A stretch of DNA of 52,936 nucleotides, taken from sequence record MT764207.1, one strand, 5' to 3'. The stretch comes from Escherichia phage JEP7. Under the pieces are notes generated by a model. The model saw only the letters and a program-made list of their open reading frames with translations. It did no database searches and was not told where the DNA came from. The translations under genes were made by a program, and so were the position numbers. Positions 3,048 to 50,983 of the stretch are shown piece after piece; the stretch's first letter is position 1; every line of letters begins with the position of its first letter.

Positions 3048-3190
3048 CCTTCATGTCAACCGCGCAACAGCCGGCCACGAGAGTCTGCAGGGCTCAGTGG
3101 ATTTCGGATGGCTGGCTGCGCGGTTTGACCCAAACCTGTTCAGAGCCCACTTGAGTGGATTGAGCCCCTCTCATATAGGATTGTAAAATT

Positions 3191-3904
3191 ATGGCACTTA
3201 AAACAGTTGTAACTGACCTTACCGAAGTTGATGAAGGCTTCCGTGGCCTGTATATCAAAGACGAAGCATCTGGCGCATTCCGTTTGGACGTTGAACCAGA
3301 CGAAAAAACGCTGAAAGAATTAGAAGACCTGCGCAAAGAAAAACAGCGTATGGAACAGCACACCAAAAAGCTTCTCGAAGAAAAGAAAAAAGAAGCTGAA
3401 CGTGCTCGCCTGGCTGAAGAAGAACGCGCACGTCGTGAGCGTGATGTTGAATCTCTTGAGCGCTCTATCAAAGAGAAACATCAGGCTGAACTGGAACAGT
3501 ATACTAATCGTCAGGCACAGCTGCAAGCTCAGCTGGAAGCGCAAATGGTTGATAACCTGGCGCTGAACCTGGCTAACCAACTCTCTGACACCCCGGCACT
3601 TATTATGCCACACATCAAGGCCCGACTGCGCGCTCAGGAAATTGATGGTAAGTGGCGTACTACTGTCGTGGATGTTATGGGTAACCCGACTGCTACAACG
3701 CCAGATGAACTAGTGGAACATATGCGCGCTGATAAGCAGTTTGCACCTCTTGTGCGTGGAACCAAGGCTGGCGGTGGCGGTGCCAACGGCGGCGGAGCTA
3801 ATCCTGGTGGGAACGGCGGTGGCGAACAGCACACTTTCGGAGGCGGGGACGACCGCATAGCACGTGCTCGTGCTAAAATCCAAAACACACAATGGGGCAA
3901 ATAA
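3191..3904 (+). CDS. scaffolding protein (putative)
   Basis: 237 aa, highly charged coiled-coil-like (EEKKKEAERARLAEEERARRERD), Gly-rich C-terminus, located between portal and major capsid genes. Confidence 0.5.
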   Translation: MALKTVVTDLTEVDEGFRGLYIKDEASGAFRLDVEPDEKTLKELEDLRKEKQRMEQHTKKLLEEKKKEAERARLAEEERARRERDVESLERSIKEKHQAELEQYTNRQAQLQAQLEAQMVDNLALNLANQLSDTPALIMPHIKARLRAQEIDGKWRTTVVDVMGNPTATTPDELVEHMRADKQFAPLVRGTKAGGGGANGGGANPGGNGGGEQHTFGGGDDRIARARAKIQNTQWGK

Positions 3905-47288: not shown

Positions 47289-47447
47289 TTACTCCTCAGA
47301 ACCTGAAAATTTGTCATCAATGGACTCAACAATATAATCAAGAGTTGAAGTGTGAGAACTATCAGAAAAAGTGCCCATCTTCTCCAGCTCAATCATCATA
47401 TCCCGTAAAGCCATTGCCTGGTCTTTGGTCAGTTTAATTTTAAGCAT
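47289..47447 (-). CDS. small acidic helical protein, paralog family member B
   Basis: 52 aa from ATG 47447 with CAGGAGAG RBS; MLKIKLTKDQAMALRDMMIELE. Confidence 0.35.
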   Translation of the reverse strand: MLKIKLTKDQAMALRDMMIELEKMGTFSDSSHTSTLDYIVESIDDKFSGSEE

Positions 47448-47511
47448 GTTTCTCTCCTGTTGATTGTGAATAATTTCAATTGATGGCACTACTTGAGTGC
47501 CATCTCAAAAA

Positions 47512-48048
47512 TTACTCTTCAGTTTCTTGGGTTTCAGGTTTTTGACCAGTTACTGACTTGCCATCAGTCACTTTACCAGATTTTACATCATTCCGGTAGT
47601 ATGACATATATGACTGGATAACTCTTTTGGCTTTGATGTCATCCGCCTCCATCCCACAGGCTTTCATGGCATCAACTAGGGCCAGTTTGGAATCTTCCTT
47701 ATCCATCAGGTTATAATCCTTAAACACCAGATAACAAGTGTCCTTGGTTGATGGACCAGATGACTTCCGGGTCCCGCCATTGGAAGATCTTGATGCCACA
47801 ACTTTGACCTCTTCAACTTCCAGTTGGTTCAGTTCATCAAACAATGCCTTGACCAACACTTCTTTGGAGTCCTTGACAGTTGCAGAACTTTCATCATTAA
47901 GGGACTTAATCATCTTAATGATCTGGTTATTGGCAAAGTACTGAAGACTATCCATCTGCACTACAATAGTCCCAAGACTTTCAGTAGTCAGACCAGATTT
48001 TACAGACTCAACAGAAAAGGCGGAAGTCAGGTAAACATAGTTAGTCAT
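47512..48048 (-). CDS. hypothetical protein
   Basis: 178 aa from ATG 48048 with GAGGA RBS; Ser/Lys/Glu-rich. Confidence 0.35.
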   Translation of the reverse strand: MTNYVYLTSAFSVESVKSGLTTESLGTIVVQMDSLQYFANNQIIKMIKSLNDESSATVKDSKEVLVKALFDELNQLEVEEVKVVASRSSNGGTRKSSGPSTKDTCYLVFKDYNLMDKEDSKLALVDAMKACGMEADDIKAKRVIQSYMSYYRNDVKSGKVTDGKSVTGQKPETQETEE

Positions 48049-48143
48049 TGATGTATCCTCATTGATAGAATTTTTGATAAGTGTCAATCCTTGACAAGTA
48101 AGTCCAATCATGAGGACTTTTACCAAGTCCCCATTGTTGGAAA

Positions 48144-48317
48144 TTACTTCAACTTATCCAGAATTGATTGGAGTAACTTGACCCTCACTTCCTGGTCTTT
48201 GACATCCCTTCCACTCTCCCTGTCATATTCCAACAGGTCACTTTCCATAAATAAAGTAGTGTCCAATTGGTCAACCAATAATTCCAGTTCTTCTTGGGAC
48301 AATTCTAAAACTTTCAT
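48144..48317 (-). CDS. small acidic helical protein, paralog family member C
   Basis: 57 aa from ATG 48317 with AGGAGT RBS; MKVLELSQEELELLVDQLD. Confidence 0.35.
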   Translation of the reverse strand: MKVLELSQEELELLVDQLDTTLFMESDLLEYDRESGRDVKDQEVRVKLLQSILDKLK

Positions 48318-48321
48318 CTTA

Positions 48322-48468
48322 TTACTCCTGATATTTAATAACTTGGGATTGGATAAAGTCAACACAATCTTCCACATCCATTGACTCAAAGTCTGGAACT
48401 GGACCATTGTTTATATTGACACACCAAAGCCCTTCATTGGTATCATACCAAAGTGTGTAGTTGTCCAT
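48322..48468 (-). CDS. hypothetical small protein
   Basis: 48 aa from ATG 48468 with GAGGTGA RBS; first gene of leftward early block. Confidence 0.3.
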   Translation of the reverse strand: MDNYTLWYDTNEGLWCVNINNGPVPDFESMDVEDCVDFIQSQVIKYQE

Positions 48469-48834
48469 CTTAATAGTCACCTCTTGTACTAGTTTCCAGT
48501 TGTGACTACTGTTACCAATAGTCACTGGTTGAAACTATTACTAGTGTTACTATCAACAAGAAACATGTTACCAGATTGTTAAAGAGCAAAAGGTACCATT
48601 GACATCTACCAGATGTACCTGTTGACTGGTTAAGTACTACCTACCCAAATTAAACCATACTAATACCCTCCAGACCAGTTGACTGGTCACTTGGTCATCA
48701 CATTCAATAAATATATAATAGTCCAATCCCTCTTGATTGTACACCTTATATTTGTAAGTTTATGCAAGTTTTTAGAAATGATAATCACTTGCGATTGAGA
48801 GTGGTTCTCATATGCAATTGATATAGTTTCACAT

Positions 48835-48914
48835 GTAATTACTCACTTCAAAATGGTCGGCGGGGGTTATAGTAACGTAGGGGTGCCACTTAAAGGAGCC
48901 GGCGAAATTATTTC
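48835..48914. repeat. GC-rich direct repeat, copy 1
   Basis: TAATTACTCACTTCAAAATGG-TCGGCGGGGGT...GGGTGCCAC...AGGAGCCGGCGAAATT; imperfect copy of 49010-49090. Confidence 0.5.
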
Positions 48915-49009
48915 TAAAAATATAATTTCAATCTGAATTATAGACGCTTTGTACTATAACGGCCGAAGTAGTTCACCCGGTAATTGTACCAATCATAATA
49001 GTTACCAGA

Positions 49010-49090
49010 GTAATCATTTCAATCGAAATAGGTGCGGCGGGGGTAATTTCGCAAGGGTGCTACCCGCCAGGAGCCAGCGGAATTTTTTTA
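49010..49090. repeat. GC-rich direct repeat, copy 2
   Basis: TAATCATTTCAATCGAAATAGG-TGCGGCGGGGGT...GGGTGCTAC...AGGAGCCAGCGGAATT followed by a T-run. Confidence 0.5.
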
Positions 49091-49319
49091 TTTTTTGGTA
49101 TTTTTGCCTTATCAGGACCAATCATCATCAGATTGATACAATAGGAGCTAACCTTTTGCCTAACACAATAATAAGTGAAGCCCCTCTAAAATTTTTTTTT
49201 ATATTTTTCGGAAATTGTGTAGACACTCACTAAAAAGTGGTGTACTTTCTCTCCTCCACGCGCTATCATTAATGTGAATCATCAAACGGCCTCACGGTCT
49301 CCTACTTGTGGGTAACATT

Positions 49320-49805
49320 ATGAAAATTGTTCAATTAGAGCCATATCCGCCTCAATTGGCTATCGTTTGCAGCGAAAAAGAGCACGAAGAGCTCCAAAAA
49401 CTGATGGATTTGCCTGATTTTGGCAACTGGAATGACCGAGAAACGCGTACTGCATCTACCTTTACGTTCTCTCGCGTTAACTATCCGTACCTGTTAATCG
49501 TCGTCGAGCTGTACCACCCGGACGACCTGAAGTACAACACCATTTCCCACGAAGGCATTCACGTAATGTCGTCGCTGATGAACTATGTCGGCCTTAAATA
49601 CGACCCAGAAAACGATGAATGGTACGCATATCAGCATGATTTCATCGTAAATGCCATTTGTAAGGCCCATGACGAGTACATTGAGCGCCAAAAAACGCCA
49701 AAAACTAAGCCAAAAATCGAAACAGGCAACCATCCTGTGATACTGCCACAAGACGTTATGAACTCGCTTTTGACTGACACTACTGGGGACTTTTTAGGTG
49801 ATTGA
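49320..49805 (+). CDS. HExxH-motif protein (putative zinc metallopeptidase-like)
   Basis: about 161 aa from ATG 49320 (track starts at a GTG at 49308); HEGIH motif (NTISHEGIHVMSSLM). Confidence 0.3.
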   Translation: MKIVQLEPYPPQLAIVCSEKEHEELQKLMDLPDFGNWNDRETRTASTFTFSRVNYPYLLIVVELYHPDDLKYNTISHEGIHVMSSLMNYVGLKYDPENDEWYAYQHDFIVNAICKAHDEYIERQKTPKTKPKIETGNHPVILPQDVMNSLLTDTTGDFLGD

Positions 49806-50307
49806 AATACTCCGTAAGTATTTTCGCTATGAGCCAGACACAGGCTTATTGTACAGAATACGACAGGCTAAAACAGGTAAACGAGTCGATTTGAGCCAGC
49901 CTGTAGGCACGGAACATAGCGGTTATCTGTTTTGCAGTGTACCAGAAGGCATTCGTACAAAGCCTGTGCACGTAATCTGCTATGCTTTACAAACTGGCGA
50001 ACTACCTGAAGTAGTTGACCATAAAGATGGTAACGGGCTTAACAACAAATGGTACAACCTTCGTAACGGTACTCAAACGCAGAACCGGTATAACTCAAAA
50101 GTCAAATCAAGTAACACAACAGGCGTAAAAGGCTTGTTTGAGTACGCACCAAAAGGTCGTAAACCTCTTTGGAAAGCCAGCATTAAAGTAGATGGAGTCA
50201 ATCATCAGAAGTATTTCCCTTATACTGATAACGGTAGGCTGGAAGCTATTGAGTGGCTTGACGAACAAAGACATCAACATGGCGAATTCGCCAACAAAGG
50301 AAATTAA
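49798..50307 (+). CDS. HNH homing endonuclease with AP2-like DNA-binding domain
   Basis: 169 aa; HNH core VVDHKDGNGLNNKWYNLRNGTQTQN; C-terminal GVKGLFEYAPKGRKPLWKASIKVDGVNHQKYFPYTDNGRLEAIEW resembles AP2 domain. Confidence 0.75.
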   Translation: MIEILRKYFRYEPDTGLLYRIRQAKTGKRVDLSQPVGTEHSGYLFCSVPEGIRTKPVHVICYALQTGELPEVVDHKDGNGLNNKWYNLRNGTQTQNRYNSKVKSSNTTGVKGLFEYAPKGRKPLWKASIKVDGVNHQKYFPYTDNGRLEAIEWLDEQRHQHGEFANKGN

Positions 50308-50308
50308 T

Positions 50309-50983
50309 GTGATAAACCTAATCTTCGCAATGGGCCAAAATGGGGAATTCGGGTTATCTCCGGAGTTTATGAAGCATCAGGTTGACTCGTGCAAGACCAT
50401 GGAAGAGGTTCGTGCGCTTCCTAAGTCTGGTCTGCCCTGGAAATGTCCGTCAGACATGCTCTTTTTCAGGACTATGACTAATTCAGTTGCGACAGAACCA
50501 GGCTATAATGCGTATCAGCAACTACGTGGACAGTTCCCAAGTGACCAGTTGCGAAACATGATAGCAGATGTAACGGTAAAAATGGTCGGACATAGTGTAC
50601 TGTTAGCCGGTCGTAACACGTATATGACTATGAGTCTGCCTATGTCAGCCCACAGAATACTGCTGCCGGTATCTCGCCAGATTATGGCTTCAGAAGGCTA
50701 CAATAATTTGGGTGAGATGGCAGCAGACCTTGAATCCAGAGGTACTGACGTCTGGATTGTAGGCGGTGCCGAGTTGATACTTTCGGCCCTTGAAGAGCAT
50801 GCAAAAGACTTACTCCGTATCGACAACATGTTTATCAGTACGATCAAGCAATCAGGTCCAAGTGATATTTTAATGGATCGTAGCAAATTAATGATGTACA
50901 TTGATAGCGACTTCACTTATAATGATGAATATGTTGATAACAAACAAGTTCTGATACAACGGTACAGGAGTTTACACGAATGA
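50309..50983 (+). CDS. dihydrofolate reductase
   Basis: GTG 50309 with AAAGGA RBS (in-frame ATG also at 50279); DHFR-like order of motifs: INLIFAMGQNGEFG, LPW, DMLFF, VLLAGRNTY, VWIVGGAELI. Confidence 0.75.
   Translation: MINLIFAMGQNGEFGLSPEFMKHQVDSCKTMEEVRALPKSGLPWKCPSDMLFFRTMTNSVATEPGYNAYQQLRGQFPSDQLRNMIADVTVKMVGHSVLLAGRNTYMTMSLPMSAHRILLPVSRQIMASEGYNNLGEMAADLESRGTDVWIVGGAELILSALEEHAKDLLRIDNMFISTIKQSGPSDILMDRSKLMMYIDSDFTYNDEYVDNKQVLIQRYRSLHE

What the first reader, a model, noticed from the sequence alone, without database searches (positions are those of the whole stretch)
49798..50307. HNH-AP2 homing endonuclease inserted immediately upstream of DHFR
A free-standing HNH endonuclease with an AP2-type DNA-binding domain overlaps the upstream gene by 8 nt and ends 1 nt before the DHFR start. 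This is the classic placement of a mobile homing endonuclease next to a conserved nucleotide-metabolism gene; it marks a likely site of recent gene flow and may exclude co-infecting relatives.
Basis: partly seen in the sequence, partly recalled or inferred. Interest (0 to 1): 0.35.

Follow-up and report, generated by a model that had tools for sequence, protein, structure and literature searches.

The report
Mobile HNH homing endonuclease gene
A small selfish nuclease gene sits exactly between two genes of this Rosemountvirus phage; about 95% of sister phages lack it and it looks recently copied in, but it is a well-known kind of phage element and nothing surprising.

Summary

The window is almost certainly coliphage JEP7. 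The same junction is uninterrupted in 42 of 44 related phage records. The 511-bp insert occurs only in the window, triss, PiR (not independent) and one SRA contig.

The insert is identical between window and triss, while the flanks differ by 2.7%. It lies in a short triss-like tract (~49727-50318) inside an otherwise Sz-like genome, which is a gene-conversion footprint. The two alleles differ with pN/pS of 0.16.

The element uses the old DHFR start codon and supplies a new ribosome-binding site, GTG and recoded codons 2-4 for DHFR. Phage KE24 has a 37%-identical relative inserted the same way one junction downstream.

Cleavage and exclusion of co-infecting phages are untested.

The parts
49798..50307 (+). 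HNH-AP2 endonuclease gene (169 aa, GTG start, TAA stop)
49798..49962 (+). N-terminal beta-rich domain (residues 1-55), equivalent to the N-terminal DNA-contacting part of I-HmuI
49963..50088 (+). HNH_3 catalytic core (residues 56-97) with D74, H75, N87 and N96
   Evidence: Pfam PF13392 E=1.2e-9. D74/H75/N96 align with the I-HmuI catalytic residues (residues named in PMC12724721).
50119..50292 (+). Divergent AP2-type DNA-binding domain (about residues 108-165: three strands plus a helix, ending in the family motif HGEFA)
49804..50314 (.). 511-bp insertion relative to the empty allele of sister phages. It can equally be written 49798-50308, because GTGAT is repeated at both ends.
   Evidence: Junction alignments. 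Empty site reads ...TTTTTAGGTGATT|AATATAATCTTCGCAATGG.
49798..49802 (+). Left copy of the GTGAT direct repeat. This is the ancestral DHFR start codon (GTG overlapping the upstream stop), now used by the HNH gene.
   Evidence: In yarpen, nenneke, SE13 and brorfarstad, DHFR is annotated from this GTG with the same 8-nt overlap.
50309..50313 (+). Right copy of GTGAT, which is the new DHFR start codon supplied by the element
50297..50301 (+). AAGGA Shine-Dalgarno-like sequence inside the 3' end of the HNH gene, 7 nt before the DHFR GTG
   Evidence: Read directly from the sequence. Its function is inferred.
49785..49789 (+). GGGGA Shine-Dalgarno-like sequence 8 nt before GTG 49798. It served DHFR in empty alleles and serves the HNH gene here.
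   Evidence: Sequence. Its function is inferred.
50312..50320 (+). Recoded DHFR codons 2-4 (ATA AAC CTA, against ATT AAT ATA in empty alleles), with substitutions at 50314, 50317 and 50318
   Evidence: Shared by all four genomes that carry the HNH gene.
49727..50318 (.). Triss-like (donor-like) tract in an otherwise Sz-like left flank, read as a putative co-conversion tract. The left boundary lies between 49697 and 49727, the right boundary between 50318 and 50356.
   Evidence: Informative-site analysis. Window and triss are identical from 49758 to 50355.
49308..49805 (+). Upstream gene (phrog_1365, function unknown). Its protein is unchanged by the insertion; only the stop codon changes, from TAA to TGA.
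50309..50983 (+). Dihydrofolate reductase gene (224 aa), the downstream neighbour and probably part of the target
   Evidence: Pfam DHFR_1 4.8e-7 and PHROG_316 4.7e-26

Best explanation
This is a free-standing homing endonuclease gene of the HNH (I-HmuI-like, HNH_3) + C-terminal AP2 family. It sits in the nucleotide-metabolism operon of a Rosemountvirus, almost certainly coliphage JEP7.

Shown here:
- It is a 511-bp insertion at the overlap between the upstream gene's stop and the DHFR start.
- It leaves both neighbours intact.
- Most sister phages lack it.
- It has moved between different Rosemountvirus backgrounds together with only tens of bases of flank.
- It is under purifying selection.

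Inferred mechanism: the gene is transcribed with the operon. It is translated from the former DHFR GTG and ribosome-binding site, coupled to the upstream gene. DHFR translation restarts from a ribosome-binding site and GTG carried at the element's 3' end.

During co-infection with a phage that has the empty junction (...GGTGATT|AATATAATCTTCGC...), the AP2 and N-terminal domains would bind a long asymmetric site at or near that junction. The single D74/H75/N96 metal site would nick or cut it; I-HmuI nicks one strand. Recombinational repair from the HNH-carrying genome would then copy in the gene plus short flanks.

The carrier's own genome would be protected because the insertion splits the site and DHFR codons 2-4 are recoded.
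For: - AP2.
- Presence/absence: 42 of 44 records (about 37 distinct phages) have the junction in one piece. Triss, yarpen and nenneke are one ICTV species, yet only triss carries the gene.
- Recent spread: 0 of 511 differences between window and triss against 2.7% in the flanks. Each carrier's nearest flank neighbour lacks the gene. A triss-like tract at 49727-50318 lies in a Sz-like background.
- Selection: 7 synonymous and 4 non-synonymous changes against the SRR19500609 allele, pN/pS 0.16.
- Single origin: the junctions are identical in all carriers.
- Gain rather than loss: empty alleles keep GAT TAA / ATT AAT, which deletion across the GTGAT repeat could not regenerate.
- Family habit: a 37%-identical relative in KE24 is inserted at the next junction (DHFR|TMK). 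It takes over the ATGA start, ends TAA + 1 nt + a new ATG, and has about 12 mostly silent changes in the first 42 nt of TMK. Relatives in Skure and rutana also sit tightly between DNA or nucleotide-metabolism genes.
- Literature: HNH+AP2 is a recognised homing endonuclease family (PMC10448857). I-HmuI nicks near its insertion site (PMC3017599).
Against: - No cleavage or homing was observed, and the target site is only inferred.
- Only three independent carriers are known: window, triss and one SRA contig. PiR appears to be a reference-guided copy of the window genome.
- The SRA allele differs by 2.2%, similar to its flanks (2.9-3.3%). The element is therefore not purely recent, and part of its history may be vertical descent plus ordinary recombination.
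- Only 3 substitutions mark the putative immunity change. They could equally reflect loss of the overlapping-stop constraint, or donor sequence carried along.
- The AP2 domain is too diverged for a direct Pfam hit.
- The nearest non-Rosemountvirus homologue is only 39% identical, so no donor lineage is known.
Confidence: 0.85

Rival explanations
1. The gene is a decayed or domesticated endonuclease that no longer homes. Its patchy distribution reflects ordinary homologous recombination among co-infecting Rosemountviruses, with the gene carried as a neutral or mildly useful passenger (for example as a regulator of the DHFR operon).
For: It is rare: 3 independent carriers. One allele is as diverged as its flanks. 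Rosemountvirus genomes are mosaic everywhere. The AP2 domain is diverged.
Against: The catalytic D74/H75/N96 residues are intact. pN/pS is 0.16. The predicted fold is confident. The conversion tract is centred exactly on the gene, with very short flanks.
Confidence: 0.1
2. The gene is ancestral to the genus and was deleted in most lineages, so the pattern reflects loss rather than gain.
For: A GTGAT direct repeat flanks the element and could mediate deletion.
Against: Deletion across GTGAT would leave GTGATAAACCTAATC and would extend the upstream ORF. All seven empty alleles inspected read GTGATTAAT..., with the TAA stop overlapping the DHFR start. The element is identical in genomes whose flanks differ by 2.7%. 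Carriers are not a clade.
Confidence: 0.03
3. It is a packaging-associated HNH protein of the HK97 gp74 type that works with terminase, not a mobile element.
For: It lies in the operon that runs into the terminase gene across the genome end.
Against: About 95% of sister phages lack it while packaging normally. It is separated from terminase by five genes. It belongs to the HNH_3/I-HmuI family and has its own DNA-binding domain.
Confidence: 0.01

Closest known systems
I-HmuI (Bacillus phage SPO1 HNH homing endonuclease, PDB 1U3E)
   Different: I-HmuI is encoded inside a group I intron and has a C-terminal helix-turn-helix domain. Here the gene is free-standing and the C-terminal domain is AP2-type. 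The nicking behaviour of I-HmuI (PMC3017599) is only presumed for this protein.
HNH-AP2 homing endonuclease family (Magnani et al. 2004 as cited in PMC10448857; 'IPA-HNH' genes of ICP1 phages)
   Same: The architecture is the same: N-terminal HNH, C-terminal AP2. The genes are free-standing and sit next to essential or nucleotide-metabolism genes at boundaries of genetic exchange.
   Different: The ICP1 genes have HNH domains too diverged for Pfam HNH_3. Here it is the AP2 domain that escapes Pfam, while HNH_3 is clear. No sequence comparison with the ICP1 proteins was run.
T4 free-standing homing endonucleases (SegF, SegG, MobE): 'intronless homing' with marker exclusion
   Same: These are also free-standing genes between conserved genes, polymorphic among relatives, and they spread with co-conversion of flanking markers (as summarised in PMC12724721).
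   Different: The Seg enzymes are GIY-YIG nucleases, and T4 endonuclease genes often have their own promoters. Here there is no own promoter above chance, and the gene is embedded by start-codon takeover.
HNH endonuclease of Salmonella phage vB_SEnST11_KE24 (XCH40767.1)
   Same: It belongs to the same family (37% identity over the full length), lies in the same operon, and has the same insertion style: it takes the downstream gene's start and ends TAA + 1 nt + a new start.
   Different: It sits at a different junction (DHFR|TMK instead of upstream gene|DHFR). The downstream gene is recoded much more heavily (about 12 changes in 42 nt, against 3 in 10).
I-HmuI-like HNH endonucleases of lactococcal Skunavirus phages (PMC12724721)
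   Same: They are free-standing I-HmuI-like genes whose number and position vary among close relatives. Some have been shown to exclude phages that lack them.
   Different: The hosts and phage lineage differ, and the C-terminal domains differ. No AP2 is mentioned in that paper (0 occurrences).

Membership tests
HNH (His-Me finger) endonuclease, HNH_3 / I-HmuI-like | beta-beta-alpha-metal core with the catalytic Asp-His and the metal-binding Asn (D74, H75, N96 of I-HmuI) | tested here: met
HNH-AP2 homing endonuclease family | C-terminal AP2 domain (three-stranded sheet packed on a helix) that matches the AP2 profile | tested here: inconclusive
Free-standing homing endonuclease gene | Presence/absence polymorphism at one precise site among close relatives, with both neighbouring genes intact | tested here: met
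   42 of 44 records have the empty site. The junctions are identical in the carriers, and the upstream protein and DHFR are both intact.
Free-standing homing endonuclease gene | Evidence of lateral spread: the element is less diverged than its flanks, its distribution disagrees with flank phylogeny, and there is a conversion tract | tested here: met
   0 of 511 differences against 2.7% in the flanks, P about 1e-6. Flank distances. The triss-like tract at 49727-50318.
Free-standing homing endonuclease gene | Not inside an intron or intein | tested here: met
   No Rfam family, group I and II introns included, was found anywhere in the window. The gene is a separate ORF with its own stop between two complete ORFs.
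Free-standing homing endonuclease gene | Site-specific nicking or cleavage of the allele that lacks the gene | not testable with these tools
   This needs an in vitro or in vivo assay.
Free-standing homing endonuclease gene | Super-Mendelian inheritance or marker exclusion in mixed infection | not testable with these tools
   This needs phage crosses.
Terminase-associated HNH (HK97 gp74-like) | Conserved in all relatives and adjacent to the terminase genes | tested here: not met
   About 95% of relatives lack it. Five genes separate it from the terminase large subunit.

The most novel reading that the evidence does not exclude
This branch of HNH-AP2 elements may be specialised as 'start-codon takeover' cassettes. 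Each member would insert exactly at the start codon of a gene in a translationally coupled operon and borrow that start and its ribosome-binding site. Its 3' end would carry TAA + 1 nt + a fresh start codon, a Shine-Dalgarno sequence and a recoded, cleavage-immune 5' end for the displaced gene. Two members that are 37% identical do this at consecutive junctions of the same Rosemountvirus operon (window; KE24). That would mean the family recognises gene-start regions and travels with its own immunity patch. Relatives in Skure and rutana show only part of this pattern.
Probability: 0.25. Interest if true: 0.35.

Novelty: new member of a known kind. Interest (0 to 1): 0.2.

Why it matters
The practical value is modest. 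It gives a clean, well-bounded natural example of intronless homing in a phage genus used in Salmonella and E. coli biocontrol cocktails: a 511-bp insert, a known empty site, and a conversion tract mapped to tens of bases. It marks a recombination hot spot beside DHFR and thymidylate kinase.

It also offers a small (169 aa) I-HmuI-like nickase or nuclease with a predicted long target, the empty junction, that could be tested directly. For cocktail design, it implies that JEP7 or triss could convert or partly exclude sister phages lacking the gene when co-applied. None of this would surprise a specialist.

Tried and rejected
- IMG/VR search with the protein: only one 35%-identical locus and no close relative.
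- IMG/VR exact scan for the empty junction: 9 hits, of which only the 2 already known GenBank genomes (SE13, yarpen) were Rosemountvirus. The rest were chance matches.
- Paralogues in the window: none (best other tblastn E=0.84).
- NCBIfam: no hit for the HNH protein.
- Pfam on the isolated C-terminal and N-terminal segments at E<=10: nothing.
- Own promoter or terminator inside or next to the gene: counts no higher than in shuffled sequence.
- Rfam over the whole window: nothing, so no intron.
- Base composition as a mark of foreign origin: HNH gene 42.5% GC, genome 45.9%, neighbours 44-45%. Too small a difference to use.
- 16-nt near-repeat between the HNH 3' end (HGEFA) and the DHFR 5' end (NGEFG). 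I considered it as microhomology for the original insertion and rejected that, because recombination there would fuse the two ORFs, which is not what is seen.
- PiR as a third independent carrier: rejected. PiR has the window's exact length, no indels, and edited-looking ATG starts.
- Magnani et al. 2004 (PMC520932) could not be read. It is cited only through PMC10448857.

Full report
**1. What is in the sequence**

The ORF list and the raw sequence confirm a 169-codon ORF at 49798-50307 on the + strand.
- It starts with GTG directly after an in-frame TAG.
- It overlaps the upstream ORF (49308-49805) by 8 nt.
- It ends with TAA at 50305-50307.
- One base later, GTG 50309 opens VINLIFAMGQNGEFG. 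PHROG_316 (DHFR) aligns with this protein from residue 1, and Pfam DHFR_1 hits it at 4.8e-7.

**2. What the protein is**

- Pfam gives HNH_3 at residues 56-97 (E=1.2e-9, above the gathering score).
- PHROG_99 'HNH endonuclease' matches residues 3-168 at 1e-37. This fixes the start at 49798 rather than at the internal TTG 49891 used in the PiR GenBank record.
- The motif VVDHKDGN...NLR..TQ.QN places D74, H75 and N96 on the residues named as catalytic for I-HmuI in PMC12724721.
- I-HmuI nicks one strand a few bases from its insertion site (PMC3017599).

*The AP2 claim.* There is no direct Pfam AP2 hit, even for the isolated C-terminal 65 residues at E<=10. The label is supported indirectly:
- In an alignment with 17 homologues, the segment TGVKGL...WKASIKVDG...HGEFA lines up with the consensus SGxKGV..W.A.I...GK...LG.F.T.EEA..AY..AA..LHGEFA.
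- 12 of the 18 aligned sequences hit PF00847 (best 7.3e-12).
- The AlphaFold model built from that alignment is confident (pLDDT 90.2). It shows three strands followed by a long helix at residues 113-161.

I accept 'AP2-type', but as a diverged member.

**3. Where the window comes from**

Megablast places the window in the genus Rosemountvirus (BP63-like myoviruses of about 53 kb).
- It has the same length as GenBank OM313461.1 (vB_EcoM_PiR), with no indels and 1551 substitutions, which is 97.07% identity.
- The PiR data paper states that PiR's nearest relative is coliphage JEP7 (MT764207.1), at 100% cover and 97.07% identity (PMC9343928).
- The JEP7 paper gives 52,936 bp, 45.94% GC and 71 ORFs (PMC8425383). 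The window is 52,936 bp and 45.94% GC.

The window is therefore almost certainly JEP7, which is not in the phage collection I could search.

PiR.1 has A at five annotated start codons where the window and every relative have G or T. One of these is the internal codon 49891 that PiR's annotators took for the HNH start. Together with the identical length, this looks like a reference-guided or edited record. I do not count PiR as an independent carrier of the gene.

**4. Presence and absence**

A 121-bp probe across the junction of phage Sz, which lacks the gene, finds the junction in one piece in 42 of 44 records. That is about 37 distinct phages once RefSeq duplicates are removed. The junction is split by about 511 bp only in triss and PiR (one search shows the same pattern).

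tblastn with the protein finds only triss and PiR above 95% identity. The next best is 39% (Seuratvirus Skure and relatives), then about 38% in T5-like phages. The large protein database adds one more carrier: an 18-kb Logan contig from SRR19500609 with the gene at the same place.

Triss, yarpen and nenneke belong to one species, yet only triss has the gene.

**5. Anatomy of the insertion**

- Empty alleles read ...GGGGACTTTTTAGGTGATT|AATATAATCTTCGCAATGGGCC...
- There, GGT GAT TAA ends the upstream gene. GTG ATT AAT ATA..., overlapping it by 8 nt, starts DHFR. Four independent annotations call DHFR from that GTG.
- In the window the left junction is GGTGATT|GAAATACTCC and the right junction is ...AAAGGAAATTAAT|GTGATAAACCTAATCTTCGC.
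- The insert is 511 bp, which is the ORF plus one base, bounded by a GTGAT repeat.

Consequences of this arrangement:
- The HNH gene is translated from the old DHFR start and its GGGGA ribosome-binding site, still coupled to the upstream gene.
- The upstream protein is unchanged; only its stop changes from TAA to TGA.
- DHFR receives a new GTG preceded by AAGGA from the HNH 3' end.
- DHFR codons 2-4 are recoded: ATT AAT ATA becomes ATA AAC CTA. This is two silent changes and one Ile-to-Leu change that also occurs in brorfarstad.
- All carriers share these junctions, so the insertion happened once.
- Deletion across GTGAT could not regenerate the GATTAAT of the empty alleles, so the empty state is ancestral.

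**6. Evidence of movement**

- Window and triss have 0 differences in the 511 bp, against 54 in the 2 kb of flanks (2.7%). Poisson P is about 1e-6, and the two are identical from 49758 to 50355.
- In the upstream gene the window is closest to Sz (1.4%) and triss is closest to yarpen (1.0%). Both of those lack the gene.
- At sites where Sz and triss differ, the window is Sz-like almost everywhere from 47300 to 49697. It is triss-like at 49727, 49738 and 49739 and at 50317-50318, then Sz-like again at 50356-50410.
- This is the footprint expected if the gene plus about 70-100 bp on the left and 10-47 bp on the right were copied from a triss-like donor into a Sz-like genome.
- The SRA allele differs at 11 positions (7 synonymous, 4 not; pN/pS 0.16), which indicates a protein under selection.
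- That 2.2% divergence is close to its flank divergence, so the element also has some history of vertical descent in the genus.

**7. A parallel case**

Phage KE24 has the empty site here but carries a 37%-identical HNH-AP2 gene one junction downstream, between DHFR and thymidylate kinase.
- It takes over the ATGA start-stop overlap of thymidylate kinase.
- It ends TAA + 1 nt + a new ATG.
- The first 42 nt of the kinase gene carry about 12 mostly silent changes.
- This is the same design as in the window, with a much heavier recoding of what is presumably the target.

Relatives in Skure (next to a dUTPase-like gene) and in the T5-like phage rutana (between SSB and recombinase genes) are also packed tightly between DNA-metabolism genes, with 4-nt overlaps on one side.

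**8. Mechanism**

Shown:
- the nuclease family and intact catalytic residues;
- the precise insertion and the intact neighbours;
- polymorphism among close relatives;
- lateral spread with short co-converted flanks;
- purifying selection.

Inferred:
- co-transcription with the operon, since no promoter or terminator signal exceeds chance;
- translational coupling;
- recognition of the empty junction by the AP2 and N-terminal domains;
- nicking or cutting there, followed by repair from the carrier genome;
- self-immunity through the split site and the three substitutions;
- partial exclusion of co-infecting relatives.

The inferences rest on analogy with I-HmuI (PMC3017599), with T4 SegF/SegG as summarised in PMC12724721, with the Skunavirus HNH enzymes tested there, and with the HNH-AP2 family and its position at exchange boundaries (PMC10448857).

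**9. Rivals**

- A non-homing passenger or domesticated remnant cannot be excluded without an assay. It fits poorly with the intact active site, the low pN/pS and a conversion tract centred on the gene.
- Ancestral presence with repeated loss is contradicted by the junction sequences and by the zero divergence.
- A terminase-associated HNH is excluded by its absence from about 95% of relatives, and by its position and family.

**10. Novelty and score**

HNH-AP2 homing endonuclease genes next to nucleotide-metabolism genes are textbook phage biology. The PiR record already labels this very gene 'homing endonuclease'.

New here are the exact anatomy (start-codon takeover with a supplied restart), the mapped conversion tract, and the sister element at the neighbouring junction. 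These are tidy details, not surprises.

I rate it a new member of a known kind, interest 0.2. The most novel reading still open is that this branch of the family is specialised for start-codon takeover with a built-in immunity patch (probability about 0.25).

Noticed in passing
whole window (1-52936): The window matches Escherichia phage JEP7 (MT764207) in length, GC content and its 97.07% identity to PiR. JEP7 is absent from the searchable phage collection. GenBank OM313461.1 (PiR) has the identical length, no indels and 1551 substitutions (1046 synonymous and 283 non-synonymous codon changes).
   Followed up: yes
window 6414, 18400, 49308, 49891, 50309: At these five annotated CDS starts PiR.1 has ATG, while the window and all relatives checked have GTG or TTG. 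Position 49891 is an internal Leu codon of the HNH gene. This suggests the PiR record was edited or built on JEP7 as a reference. IntR and swi3 likewise share the exact length 52,782 bp.
   Followed up: partly
L004 (KE24) 3169-3684; corresponds to window junction 50980-50983: KE24 carries a second HNH-AP2 gene, 37% identical, inserted between DHFR and thymidylate kinase. It has the same start-takeover design, and about 12 mostly silent changes in the first 42 nt of the kinase gene.
   Followed up: yes
window 49308-49805: The upstream gene (phrog_1365, unknown function) contains an HExxH motif (SHEGIHV), which hints at a small metallopeptidase-like protein. There is no Pfam or NCBIfam hit.
   Followed up: no
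window 50309-50983: The DHFR is unusually long at 224 aa. Pfam DHFR_1 aligns only with residues 94-188, so there seems to be a large insert after the first beta-strand. In PiR.1 this gene is 10-11% diverged from every other Rosemountvirus.
   Followed up: no
window 50275-50290 and 50336-50351: There is a 16-nt near-repeat (14 of 16): CAACATGGCGAATTCG and CAAAATGGGGAATTCG. One copy encodes HGEFA at the HNH C-terminus and the other NGEFG near the DHFR N-terminus. This is probably chance.
   Followed up: partly
window 48526-49307: A stretch of about 780 bp between the leftward and rightward gene blocks has no convincing ORF. KE24 annotators call two tiny ORFs there. It may be a regulatory or promoter region.
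   Followed up: no
L012 (SPHG1) 1354-1396: The more distant relative SPHG1 has a spacer of about 40 nt between the upstream gene and DHFR, instead of the 8-nt overlap. The junction is therefore not fixed across the wider group.
   Followed up: no
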